From a virus (Duplodnaviria; Heunggongvirae; Uroviricota; Caudoviricetes): a stretch of 64,000 nt of DNA. The position numbers are program-made. Within the stretch, counting starts at the first letter, position 1, and the number at the start of each line of letters is the position of its first letter. Positions 27,001 to 30,000 of this stretch are shown in pieces. The DNA lies in the IMG/VR virus record IMGVR_UViG_2541047938_000006; one strand, given 5' to 3'.

Positions 27001-30000
27001 CATATTTTTATCTGTTATTCCTGTGCCCAGCCAACCCTGTATGCCAGTATCTCATCCGCACTGGTCAGCTTTTCCAGCTCTTTCTTCATGGTGCGCTGCC
27101 GGACGTGGATTTCCATCCCTTTGGTGAACATCGCCTTCTCCGCCGCCTCACTGAGTGCCATCAGCGCCTCTGCCGTCATCGGGACGTCGTTATTCTCCGC
27201 ATCCGTCCAGAAAAAGCCCTCCGGCAGTATTCCTGCTTTCGCTGCCGCCACCGACGGCTCAAGACGCGTCTGCGTTGACTTCCCGTAGTCCCATTTACGC
27301 CCATTGTGCTCAAACGTGTAGTTCGCCGCTTCCATAGCATTACGCCAGGCGTTGATCTCGGCGGTTTTGAGTTCTCTGGCTTTTTCCGGGCTGATGGATG
27401 GCTGTACATATTCTGCAATTTCACCGGCCTCTCCTTTCTGACAAGCGGCATAAATATCCCGCCCGTATGCTTCGGTATCGCTGGCTGTTGCAGTGAAAGG
27501 AACCGCCTGCTCAATGTGCTCAAACTTCACCATGCAATTGACAGCAGTGTGCTCTTTATCTGCCCATTGCGGATTGCTTATTTTTTCCACATTCATGTTC
27601 ATCTCCTGTCTGTCAGTATGCGCGCTGGAACAGCCCGATGCTTTCATTATCATTTGTCGACGTAATTTCATTACACACCATCCATGAGCCCGGAACTGAG
27701 GATAGTATGCCGTCAATGCCATCGGTGTTAGCTTTCATATAGTTTCCGTTTTCGTCTTTGATTAGGGCGCATCGCTTAAGGCGTGAACCCGATACAGTTT
27801 CTCCTGGCTGATAGGTTCTGCCGATGTCGGTTATATACGGGCCTAGTGCGGCAATAATGTATGTTCCGATGCTGTAAATTTCCCCGGGTACCAGCCTTCC
27901 GGTTGGCCCTTGTGGTCCCTGTGGTCCGGGTTCACCTGTCGGGCCCTGTGGACCTGTCGGGCCCTGTCTTCCTGTTTCTCCCTGCAAACCTCGTGGCCCC
28001 GTTTTACCCGCAGGACCTGCCGGACCAACCGGCCCCGGAACACCCTGTGCCCCCGCTGGTCCCCTTTCACCTCGTGGCCCTGCCGGGCCTGCATCACCTT
28101 TGGGACCAGCTGCACCAGCCGGTCCCTGTGGGCCTGCGGGCCCCACTGCTCCCGCAGGTCCTGTCGCCCCCTGCAGCCCACGGAGGCCCTGCTCACCTTT
28201 CTGTCCTGCAGGCCCCTGAGGTCCGGGTTCACCGCGCTCACCTTTCGGACCTGTGGGACCTGCCGGTCCTTGCTCGCCCCTGTCACCTTTCGGTCCAGGT
28301 ATGCTTTCTCCCGACGGGCGGGTTGTCGCAACCTCTTCTGCCTTCTGTTTCGCTGCCCTGGCCTCATCCATTGCCGCCTTCACAGCTTTCGGTGTGGCTG
28401 CCTTCGTTTCATCATCACTGTCCGTTGCGCTGCTTAACTGCACAATTCCCTTCTGTGCCGTCGTCGCATCTGCCACATTTGCTGCGCTGCCCGCCGGGCC
28501 TGGCTCCCCACGAGGTCCCTGAGGTCCGGCTTCGCCTCGTTCACCTTTCGGACCTGCCGGACCCGGTTCACCTCTCTCTCCGGCGGGGCCCTGTAATCCT
28601 TGCGGACCACGTTCCCCGGGTTCCCCTTTCGGCCCCGCAGGTCCGGTCTCACCGCGCTCTCCCTTTGCTCCTGCCGGCCCCGGCTCACCTCTCGGACCAG
28701 CATCCCCCTTTGGTCCCTGAGGCCCCCCGGGTCTCCTTTTTCGCCTCTGGCCCCGGTTTCACCACGCGGCCCCATTGCTCCCTGTGGCCCGATCGCACCA
28801 CGTGGGCCAGATGGCCCTGTTGCGCCAGCTGGCCCCTGCACTCCCTGAGGTCCCCGTTCTCCTGTATCACCTTTCTGGCCCGGTATGCCCTGAGGTCCGC
28901 GCTCTCCCTGCTCACCTTTCTCCCCACGCGGACCCGCCGGACCTGTTTCACCACGAGGACCAGCATCACCTTTCGGCCCTGTATCGCCTTTAGGTCCTCG
29001 TGCATTCTCAGCCATACGTCTGGCTTCTTCAGCACTAACCGTAGCAGCCTCAGCACGTTTAAGAACGTCTCCGGCGGCCTCCTGAGCCACTCTGGCGGTT
29101 TCAGCATGTTGTCTGGCCTCTTTCGCGTCTGCTGCCGCTGCCTTTTCAGACTCACCTGCCCGGGTCGCCGCCTCTGCAGCCTCACTGGCTTTTTGTGCAG
29201 ACTCCGTCGCTTTGCTTGTCGCAGCCTTCGCGCTTTCTGATGCAGTCTTCGCACTGGCAGCAGCGCTTTCCTTCGACTGTGAAGCCTGATTATTTTTCAC
29301 CGCCGTGTCTTCGTTCAGACGACGAATCGTGGCAAGGTCATCCGCCACATTGTTCTGTATCTGCCGGAAATCTGTCAGCAGTTCTCCGGGTATGCTCACC
29401 TCAACAAGACTACGCCGTAACAGCATATTGAGCGTCACCGTACTTTCAGTCCCCTCAATACGCACACGTCCGTAGACAGCAGTCTTCCCTTTCACCGTCA
29501 CAGAAACCGCATACTCCCCCGGCTCCAGCGTCATTCCGTAATACCCGCCGTCACGAGTCACTGCTGACGCACTGGTGCCGCTGAGCGCATCCGGTGAAAC
29601 TGTCAGCGCCGTCAGGGTAATATTTGCGCCTGATATCGCCTCACCATCAGGAGATTTCAGCGTCCCCGAAACAACAACACTCACATTCCACCTCCGTTAA
29701 ACACCTTCTTGCGGGCAGACAATGCACTGTCTGCACCCTGTTTAATCCCGAGCTGCTCAACAAAACTCTGATAATGTTGTGCTGCCAGTCCTGACTCTGC
29801 ACCACCGGCTGCATCCTTGCTGAATGCACGAAACAACATCCAGTCAACCAGCGGGTTAACATAAGCCTCTTCCAGCGGTACAGGCGTGTCATCATCCTGC
29901 GTCAGAACATACACCGCCTCCGGAATGCGGCTGACCACAGCATCAACACTCACAGCCTCCTCCGGTGCCGGAAACAGCCAGAACACGCGCGGGGCAAGAT

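What the first reader, a model, noticed from the sequence alone, without database searches (positions are those of the whole stretch)
28700..28740. Tail-fibre gene frameshifted at a C6/G6 homopolymer inside collagen-like repeats
The Gly-X-Y reading frame breaks exactly at the homopolymer 28723-28728 and resumes in frame 0; removing two bases would restore uninterrupted Gly-X-Y periodicity (reading [18 protein letters not shown]). This could be slipped-strand phase variation of the receptor-binding fibre, a pseudogenising mutation, or a sequencing error.
Basis: seen in the sequence. Interest (0 to 1): 0.5.

Follow-up and report, generated by a model that had tools for sequence, protein, structure and literature searches.

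The report
Frameshifted prophage tail-fibre gene, real mutation
A prophage tail-fibre gene in this E. coli genome is broken by the loss of one G from a run of seven; the loss is real and inherited in a small clonal lineage, and it looks like ordinary prophage decay rather than a switch or a recoding signal.

Summary
The lateral tail-fibre gene (minus strand, 29684..27613) changes frame at a G6 run (28728..28723). The Gly-X-Y text continues in the -1 frame down to a normal C-terminal domain.

Intact alleles do not have two fewer bases. They have one more: G7, read CCG GGG GGG CCT. [quoted passage not shown]

With identical flanks, every other sequence found has G7: 18/18 complete E. coli genomes, 9/9 viral contigs, 16/16 metagenome contigs and phage PhiR12_3.

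G6 is not an assembly error. It recurs in GCA_002538945.1 and in a Logan assembly of SRR3987722 reads. These differ from the window by one SNP in 20.8 kb.

It does not look like phase variation or programmed frameshifting:
- The tract is fixed within each lineage.
- Stx phages encode the same motif without any G run (CCG GGA GGT CCT).
- No stimulatory RNA structure follows the tract.
- All-G heptamers are among the least shifty in E. coli.

The Sp5 orthologue is essential for infectivity, so this prophage most likely makes fibre-defective, non-infectious particles. An IS21-family element also interrupts its esterase gene. Verdict: an ordinary, recent pseudogenising deletion.

The parts
27613..29684 (-). 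Lateral tail-fibre gene of a 933W/Sp5/phi24B-like podovirus prophage, carrying a 1-nt deletion (pseudogene). The repaired product is 690 aa.
   Evidence: Relatives have a single intact CDS of 1905-2073 nt annotated 'tail fiber protein'. PHROG 366 tail fiber 2.7e-168.
28723..28728 (-). G6 homopolymer (C6 on the plus strand), the site of the G7->G6 deletion. It covers the third base of Pro319 plus Gly320 and Gly321 of the conserved G-X-P-G-G-P-X-G interruption.
   Evidence: The motif is described in PMC3368898.
28434..29684 (-). ORF1, 416 aa. It has the authentic N-terminal 321 residues (docking domain, Ala-rich coil, about 30 Gly-X-Y triplets), then 95 further residues of which about 87 are out-of-frame Arg-rich text, then a stop.
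   Evidence: The exact product is on record in GCA_000461255.1.
27613..28476 (-). ORF2 in the -1 frame (287 aa from GTG 28476; gene callers take 276 aa from GTG 28443). It holds the rest of Col1, the Phage_fiber_2 repeat, Col2 and the C-terminal globular domain.
29301..29684 (-). N-terminal docking domain (residues 1-128; CarboxypepD_reg / phage_tail_N-like).
   Evidence: PF13620 1.1e-08; PF08400 3.9e-04, below cut-off. In phi24B gp61 the N-terminal domain binds the adaptor/nozzle.
28483..28997 (-). First collagen-like domain (repaired residues 230-401: 31 triplets, one out-of-register residue, 26 triplets), interrupted by the frameshift.
28339..28464 (-). Phage_fiber_2 (Pf2) repeat between the two collagen domains (repaired residues 408-449).
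   Evidence: PF03406, 3.2e-18.
27892..28296 (-). Second collagen-like domain (repaired residues 464-598, 45 triplets).
27613..27891 (-). C-terminal ~92-aa globular domain (presumed receptor-binding/trimerisation tip) plus the stop codon. It has no Pfam match.
   Evidence: By analogy to phi24B gp61 residues 568-644.
28792..28792 (-). The only lineage-private substitution in the gene (coding-strand T versus C in 24 relatives; Thr298->Ile), 64 nt upstream of the deletion.

Best explanation
This is a genuine, recent, heritable single-base deletion (G7 to G6) in the lateral tail-fibre gene of a 933W/Sp5/phi24B-type short-tailed prophage integrated next to ynfF in an E. coli chromosome (GCA_000461255.1).

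The run of seven G exists only because this allele family spells the conserved Pro-Gly-Gly-Pro kink of the collagen-like shaft as CCG GGG GGG CCT. Replication slippage in that run removed one G (inferred).

Translation now leaves the Gly-X-Y frame after residue 321 and stops 95 codons later. The product keeps the N-terminal docking domain, the coiled coil and about 30 collagen triplets. It lacks the rest of the shaft and the C-terminal tip.

The orthologous fibre is essential for plaque formation and lysogenisation in Sp5. The prophage is therefore predicted (inferred, not shown) to release fibre-defective, non-infectious particles. This is a step in ordinary prophage decay, alongside an IS21-family insertion in the same prophage.
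For: 1. Frame break at G6, with authentic protein text in the -1 frame.

2. All intact relatives have G7 and a single CDS:
- four annotated E. coli loci;
- SCU-104, the same prophage at the same chromosomal site;
- 18/18 complete E. coli genomes by alignment span;
- 9/9 IMG/VR contigs and 16/16 metagenome contigs;
- phage PhiR12_3.

3. G6 is reproduced in independent records. GCA_002538945.1 contig NMGO01000029.1 and the Logan assembly of SRR3987722 differ from the window by one SNP over 20.8 kb.

4. The window is otherwise clean.
- It has no other gene-breaking homopolymer indel over about 24 kb against UCPROB-002 and about 56 kb against SCU-104.
- At the one other C6/C7 difference (54148), the window is the intact allele.

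5. The lesion is recent. There is only one other lineage-private change in the gene, and the downstream frame is still fully open.

6. [quoted passage not shown]

7. Sp5 ORF67 deletion gave excision +, packaging +, plaques - and lysogenisation - (PMC5155283).

8. phi24B gp61 trimers form the six lateral fibres, with the N-terminal domain docking on the tail.
Against: - No read-level data were available, so a minority of G7 molecules within cultures cannot be excluded.
- L037 and L038 share their single SNP and may be the same isolate. Independent confirmation is therefore at least two sequencing projects plus one independent assembler, not necessarily three strains.
- The loss of infectivity is extrapolated from Sp5. 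The phi24B authors question whether this fibre is the BamA binder.
- Co-resident related prophages could supply fibres in trans. Up to 11 matching places per genome were seen among relatives.
Confidence: 0.82

Rival explanations
1. Slipped-strand phase variation. The G tract would be a contingency locus that reversibly switches the receptor-binding fibre ON (G7) and OFF (G6/G8) at high frequency.
For: The break lies exactly in a mononucleotide run inside a receptor-recognition gene. G7 is the longest G/C run in the gene. The reverse change, G6 to G7, would restore a wild-type protein exactly.
Against: - There is no tract-length polymorphism. Every sequence outside the mutant lineage has G7 and every lineage member has G6. 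The pattern allowed G4-G10.
- The G run is not conserved in the family. Stx phages TL-2011c, P13374 and AU5Stx1 encode the same GDPGGP motif as CCG GGA GGT CCT, with a longest G run of 3.
- From my own knowledge, 7 nt is short for known hypermutable tracts, and E. coli is mismatch-repair proficient.
- From my own knowledge, the known phage polyG switches (Campylobacter phages) use longer tracts.
Confidence: 0.06
2. Sequencing or assembly error. The true genome would have G7 and the deposited assembly dropped one base in the homopolymer.
For: Homopolymer miscalls are common artefacts. Two of the comparison records themselves show suspicious homopolymer differences: UCPROB-002 A7 versus A6 and SCU-104 C7 'frameshifted'.
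Against: - The identical G6 allele, with the linked private SNP 28792T, is in GCA_002538945.1 and in an independent Logan assembly of SRR3987722 reads.
- The exact 416-aa product is on a second contig besides the source.
- No other gene-breaking homopolymer indel in the window across about 56 kb of close comparison.
- 43 other assemblies, mostly short-read, read G7 without difficulty.
Confidence: 0.05
3. Recoding. The G6 allele would be expressed as a full-length fibre by programmed -1 ribosomal frameshifting on G_GGG_GGC, or by transcriptional slippage adding a G.
For: In frame 0 the site is formally an X_XXY_YYZ heptamer (CC G_GGG_GGC). A -1 slip would yield exactly the wild-type peptide GDPGGPQG.
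Against: - The two-frame organisation is not conserved. All relatives outside the mutant lineage are in one frame.
- The 123 nt downstream fold no better than shuffles (z = 0.26; 123 of 200 shuffles fold as well).
- In E. coli, all-G heptamers are at the bottom of the measured range. G_GG.G_GG.U gave 0.018% without a stimulator, against a background of 0.055%. G_GG.G_GG.C is not among the motifs above 0.10% (PMC4066793).
- From my own knowledge, a 6-nt run is short for productive RNA-polymerase slippage.
Confidence: 0.04
4. The split is functional. ORF1 (anchor plus stalk) and ORF2 (stalk plus tip) would be two separately translated fibre subunits.
For: Gene callers annotate both pieces. The GTG at 28443 lies just upstream of ORF1's TAA and follows an AAGGGA stretch. 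Some deposited phages of this family carry split fibre annotations or a separate small 'alternate tip' ORF (Sp5 ORF68).
Against: - ORF1 ends in about 87 residues of out-of-frame text with no homologue.
- ORF2 would lack the N-terminal docking domain that attaches the fibre to the tail.
- The TL-2011c split is at a different place and comes from a ~140-nt duplication or insertion.
- All close relatives have a single CDS.
Confidence: 0.02

Closest known systems
EPclB-type E. coli prophage collagen-like proteins (Ghosh et al. 2012, PMC3368898)
   Same: [quoted passage not shown]
   Different: The C-terminal ~92 aa give no PfC (PF06820) hit, so the tip is a different module. Here the gene is also inactivated by a 1-nt deletion exactly at the interruption codons.
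Lateral tail fibre of short-tailed Stx-type phages: Sp5 ORF67/ECs1228, 933W L0121, phi24B gp61 (PMC5155283; bioRxiv 10.64898/2026.04.10.717836)
   Same: The gene order is the same: N4-gp56-like capsid, small genes, SU10-type adaptor, fibre, DUF4376 protein, tail genes, ~2790-aa giant protein. The N-terminal ~100 residues are near-identical to AU5Stx1 TfpS and P13374 ORF65. The domain plan matches that described for gp61.
   Different: This prophage carries no stx in the window. Its collagen and tip modules are mosaic variants. The PGGP motif is spelled with a G7 run instead of CCG GGA GGT CCT. The gene is frameshifted.
Hypermutable polyG tracts in Campylobacter phage receptor-binding genes
   Same: A mononucleotide G run inside a phage fibre or receptor-binding gene, whose length decides whether the full protein is made.
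   Different: Those tracts are longer, conserved as DNA features and heterogeneous within phage populations. Here the tract is 7 nt, invariant across 44 sequences, absent from sister alleles and stably G6 in the mutant lineage.
Frameshifted prophage structural genes in E. coli (generic prophage decay)
   Same: A single inactivating indel in an essential virion gene, a second lesion (IS insertion) in the same prophage, and cargo genes (Eib/YadA-like adhesin, ibrAB-like pair, Lom) left intact.
   Different: Nothing substantive. This is the category it belongs to.

Membership tests
EPclB-type prophage collagen-like tail-fibre protein | Two collagen triple-helix (Gly-X-Y)n domains separated by a Phage_fiber_2 (Pf2) repeat | tested here: met
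   On the repaired protein: PF01391 2.5e-48 (5 stretches) and PF03406 3.2e-18 at 408-449. Triplet runs at 230-322, 324-401 and 464-598.
EPclB-type prophage collagen-like tail-fibre protein | [quoted passage not shown] | tested here: met
The motif is as stated in PMC3368898. In the window the motif is cut by the deletion.
EPclB-type prophage collagen-like tail-fibre protein | PfN N-terminal domain (PF08400) | tested here: inconclusive
   PF08400 E = 3.9e-4, 20.9 bits, below the 26.6-bit cut-off. The related CarboxypepD_reg PF13620 scores 35.7 bits, above its cut-off.
EPclB-type prophage collagen-like tail-fibre protein | PfC C-terminal domain (PF06820) | tested here: not met
   No Pfam family at E <= 0.01 covers residues 599-690. 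The tip is a different module, so I file this as EPclB-like architecture with a variant C-terminus.
EPclB-type prophage collagen-like tail-fibre protein | PCoil coiled-coil region between PfN and Col | not tested
   An Ala/Glu/Lys-rich low-complexity stretch at about 129-229 is visible in the sequence. No coiled-coil predictor was run.
Sepvirinae (933W/Sp5/phi24B-like) lateral tail fibre | Position immediately downstream of the SU10-type tail adaptor in the conserved late operon, with a shared N-terminal docking domain | tested here: met
   Adaptor 30331..29681 (PF24175 8.8e-32) overlaps the fibre start by 4 nt. The order is the same in TL-2011c, P13374, AU5Stx1 and PhiR12_3. The N-terminal sequences are near-identical.
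Simple-sequence contingency locus (phase variation) | Tract-length polymorphism among closely related sequences | tested here: not met
   G7 in 18/18 genomes, 9/9 viral contigs, 16/16 metagenome contigs and PhiR12_3. G6 in all records of the mutant lineage. No G5, G8 or other length although G4-G10 were allowed.
Simple-sequence contingency locus (phase variation) | Repeat tract conserved as a DNA feature across the gene family | tested here: not met
   The same protein motif is encoded CCG GGA GGT CCT (longest G run 3) in TL-2011c, P13374 and AU5Stx1.
Simple-sequence contingency locus (phase variation) | Within-population heterogeneity of tract length | not testable with these tools
   This needs read pile-ups or amplicon deep sequencing.
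Programmed -1 ribosomal frameshift | Two-frame gene organisation conserved among homologues | tested here: not met
   All homologues outside the G6 lineage are single-frame CDSs.
Programmed -1 ribosomal frameshift | Efficient slippery heptamer plus a downstream stimulatory structure | tested here: not met
   G_GGG_GGC is formally X_XXY_YYZ, but all-G heptamers are at background in E. coli (PMC4066793). The downstream 123 nt fold at z = 0.26 against shuffles.
Assembly/sequencing artefact | Not reproducible in independent data sets | tested here: not met
   G6 is reproduced in GCA_002538945.1 and in Logan's assembly of SRR3987722. So the feature is not an artefact at the assembly level.

The most novel reading that the evidence does not exclude
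The CCG GGG GGG CCT spelling of the conserved Pro-Gly-Gly-Pro kink could make this allele family prone to recurrent, reversible G7/G6 slippage. A lysogen population would then carry a low-frequency mixture of fibre-ON and fibre-OFF prophages, a weak contingency switch for virion infectivity. The G6 lineage seen here would be one that drifted or was selected to OFF.
Probability: 0.04. Interest if true: 0.45.

Novelty: already known. Interest (0 to 1): 0.1.

Why it matters
It matters little beyond annotation.

- The two ORFs at 29684..28434 and 28476..27613 should be annotated as one frameshifted tail-fibre pseudogene.
- The prophage should be scored as probably defective for infectious-particle production, while still carrying intact cargo (an Eib/YadA-like adhesin, an ibrAB-like pair, Lom/Ail).
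- The case is a small caution for sequence-only reading. The repair that restores perfect Gly-X-Y is not the natural one, because this protein class has a conserved Gly-Gly interruption at exactly this place.
- The deletion plus the linked 28792T SNP could serve as a lineage marker for this clone.

Tried and rejected
- **TL-2011c split fibre.** I checked whether a viable phage tolerates a split at this site. Its split comes from a ~140-nt duplication or insertion in the N-terminal domain and is unrelated to the tract.
- **A6/A7 difference at ~27586.** It looked like a second homopolymer lesion at the start of the DUF4376 gene. The window agrees with L002 and L004, so the odd allele belongs to UCPROB-002.
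- **C6/C7 difference at 54148.** The window is intact there, and SCU-104 is the record annotated 'frameshifted'.
- **The listing of cluster members.** Neither broken product was found as an exact sequence, so this was uninformative.
- **Genome contigs pattern scan.** It gave 0 hits, because the species representatives lack this allele.
- **Downstream RNA structure for -1 frameshifting.** It is no better than shuffles.
- **Signs of long-term decay.** Only one private substitution was found, so there is no evidence of age.
- **Searches not run.** I did not run the large protein-homology searches or structure prediction. The DNA-level census and the published descriptions already settled the question.

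Full report
**1. The observation**

The plus strand at 28723-28728 is CCCCCC. The gene lies on the minus strand, so the coding strand has G6 at 28728..28723.

The reading frame that starts at GTG 29684 gives an N-terminal domain, an Ala-rich stretch and then perfect Gly-X-Y up to ...GEKGDPGG. About 87 residues of Arg-rich nonsense follow, then a stop at 28434 (416 aa in all).

The -1/+2 frame picks up immediately as [15 protein letters not shown].... It runs open for about 370 codons through more collagen text, a Phage_fiber_2 repeat, a second collagen domain and a C-terminal globular domain to the stop at 27613. The region is 2072 nt, so its length mod 3 is 2. The tract is the only homopolymer of 6 or more in the gene.

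**2. The intact state**

The closest complete-genome relative (UCPROB-002, 99.6% identical over the gene) spans 2073 nt. It differs at the tract by one extra G: CCC GGGGGGG CCT. Three further relatives of differing divergence also have G7 and a single intact 'tail fiber protein' CDS of 1935-2064 nt.

The intact protein therefore reads [13 protein letters not shown]. Its Gly-X-Y register is interrupted by one residue.

Ghosh et al. 2012 described exactly this. [quoted passage not shown] Here the motif is G317-D-P-G-G-P-Q-G324. The G7 run is simply CC**G GGG GGG** CC.

**3. Tract-length census**

| Source (same flanks) | Result |
|---|---|
| Complete E. coli genomes, 71-nt query centred on the tract | 18 genomes, all spanning 72 nt (one gap = G7), none matching exactly |
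| IMG/VR viral contigs, pattern allowing G4-G10 | 9 hits, all G7 |
| Metagenome contigs, same pattern | 16 hits, all G7 |
| GTDB species representatives, same pattern | no hits |
| Phage PhiR12_3 | G7 |
| SCU-104 | G7 |

No G5, G8 or other length was seen anywhere. Some of these records are clonal duplicates, so the number of independent observations is smaller than the count.

**4. Is G6 a sequencing error?**

The window is an exact piece of GCA_000461255.1, scaffold KE702357.1.

The downstream fragment exists as a separate gene call only when the gene is split. Looking it up found further contigs. Both GCA_002538945.1 (NMGO01000029.1) and a Logan assembly of run SRR3987722 carry G6. Each differs from the window by a single SNP across 20.8 kb and 19.2 kb respectively. 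That SNP, at 29482, is a Thr68->Ile change inside the same gene.

The window is not otherwise prone to homopolymer errors.
- Against UCPROB-002 (about 24 kb at 98-99%), no other gene-breaking homopolymer indel appears in the window.
- Against SCU-104 (the same prophage at the same ynfF-side site, about 56 kb aligned at 97-100%, including 18 kb at 99.95%), the same holds.
- The two other homopolymer differences (A6/A7 at 27586, C6/C7 at 54148) are cases where the window has the intact allele and the comparator has the odd one.

G6 is therefore a real allele, inherited by a small clonal lineage. Read-level confirmation was not possible with these tools.

**5. Is it a switch or a recoding site?**

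Phase variation predicts tract-length polymorphism among relatives and conservation of the tract as DNA. Neither is seen.
- The length is fixed at G7 outside the lineage and at G6 inside it.
- Bona fide Stx phages (TL-2011c, P13374, AU5Stx1) encode the same GDPGGP motif as CCG GGA GGT CCT, with no G run.
- The conserved feature is therefore the peptide, and the homopolymer is a synonymous accident of one allele family.

Programmed -1 frameshifting predicts a conserved two-frame organisation, a good heptamer and a stimulator.
- Relatives are single-frame.
- The 123 nt downstream fold no better than shuffles (z = 0.26).
- In the systematic E. coli survey, all-G heptamers are at the bottom. G_GG.G_GG.U gave 0.018% without a stimulator, against a background of 0.055%. 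G_GG.G_GG.C is not among the motifs above 0.10% (PMC4066793).
- A rare -1 slip would regenerate the wild-type peptide, but only at background level.

**6. What the gene is and what the lesion does**

The repaired 690-aa protein has this plan:

| Residues | Feature |
|---|---|
| 1-128 | CarboxypepD_reg / phage_tail_N-like domain |
| ~129-229 | Ala-rich region |
| 230-401 | Col1, with the kink at 317-324 |
| 408-449 | Phage_fiber_2 repeat |
| 464-598 | Col2 |
| 599-690 | tip with no Pfam match |

The best PHROG hit is 'tail fiber protein' (2.7e-168).

The gene sits directly after an SU10-type adaptor gene. It lies in the late operon typical of 933W/Sp5/phi24B-type podoviruses: N4-gp56-like capsid, portal, DUF4376, tail-tip protein and a 2792-aa giant protein.

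In phi24B the orthologue gp61 forms the six lateral fibres. Its N-terminal domain docks on the adaptor/nozzle, followed by a long collagen-like shaft and a small C-terminal globular domain. In Sp5, deleting the orthologue ORF67 leaves excision and packaging intact but abolishes plaque formation and lysogenisation.

The G6 allele can only give two kinds of product.
- An anchor-plus-stub protein without the tip.
- Possibly a tip fragment from ORF2, which would lack the docking domain.

The inferred outcome is fibre-defective, non-infectious particles, unless fibres are supplied by co-resident prophages. This step is inference, not shown.

**7. Age and context**

Only one other lineage-private change exists in the gene: 28792 T versus C in 24 relatives, Thr298->Ile. 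The downstream frame carries no stop. The deletion is therefore recent.

The same prophage carries an IS21-family element (IstA/IstB) inside its SASA/nanS-p-like esterase gene, which is intact in UCPROB-002 and SCU-104. The picture is ordinary early prophage decay with cargo genes preserved.

**8. Verdict**

This is a real feature of a well-known kind: a frameshift pseudogene in a prophage. Interest is low. Two points are mildly instructive. The deletion hits the codons of a conserved collagen-helix interruption. The intuitive 'perfect periodicity' repair is wrong.

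Noticed in passing
window ~43443-46002 (IstA-like 43636-45177 +, IstB 45189-45938 +); flanking gene halves 46937..45996 (-) and 43455..42346 (-): An IS21-family element is inserted in the prophage SASA/nanS-p-like esterase gene (N-terminal half DUF1737+SASA, C-terminal half DUF6645). The gene is a single intact 657-aa CDS in UCPROB-002 and SCU-104. In phi24B the processed esterase decorates the capsid. This is a second lesion in the same prophage. The exact IS ends and target duplication were not resolved (only an 8-bp shared word, TCTCCTTC).
   Followed up: partly
window 26651..25191 (-): A 486-aa YadA-head / YadA-anchor trimeric autotransporter (Eib-like) lies downstream of the fibre and DUF4376 genes, as prophage cargo. 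Relatives carry variants of different lengths (357-503 aa) at the same position.
   Followed up: partly
window 4997-6852 (+) and 4165-4800 (+), 7465..6941 (-): The prophage end next to ynfF carries a PAPS-reductase-like gene plus an IbrB-like gene (an ibrAB-type pair), an AntA/AntB antirepressor and a Panacea-domain protein, by the annotation of the 100%-identical SCU-104 region. ibrAB is recalled from the literature as a regulator of Eib expression. The co-occurrence with the Eib-like gene was not examined further.
   Followed up: no
window 54148 (ORF 54572..53802, -, 256 aa) versus L036 13660-14431: There is a C6 (window) versus C7 (SCU-104) difference in the DUF1627 gene. SCU-104's copy is annotated 'frameshifted' and the window's is intact. 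This is another G/C-run indel in this prophage family, but in the comparator.
   Followed up: partly
L001 5093-5671 (UCPROB-002) versus window ~27586-27599: UCPROB-002 has A7 where the window, L002 and L004 have A6, at codons 5-6 of the DUF4376 gene. This forces an alternative annotated start (MWKK... instead of MNVEK...). It is probably a homopolymer error or mutation in that record.
   Followed up: yes
L033 1501-3882 (phage TL-2011c): The deposited TL-2011c genome annotates the fibre as three CDSs. The first split is caused by a ~140-nt insertion with a duplicated segment in the N-terminal domain, not by a homopolymer.
   Followed up: partly
window 29482 (L037/L038 position 8962): The only difference between the window and the two other G6 records over 20.8 kb is a non-synonymous change (Thr68->Ile) inside the broken fibre gene. 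This is compatible with relaxed constraint, but n = 1.
   Followed up: partly
L035 1-3600 (SCU-104) versus window ~566-573: SCU-104 has an ISEc8 (IS66-family) insertion in the ynfE-like reductase gene that is absent from the window. The chromosomal flank is otherwise 100% identical.
   Followed up: no
window 15994..7616 (-): A 2792-aa giant ORF (annotated as an LPD38-domain protein in relatives) corresponds to the unusually large essential tail protein ORF80 (2793 aa) of Sp5. It is intact in the window.
   Followed up: no
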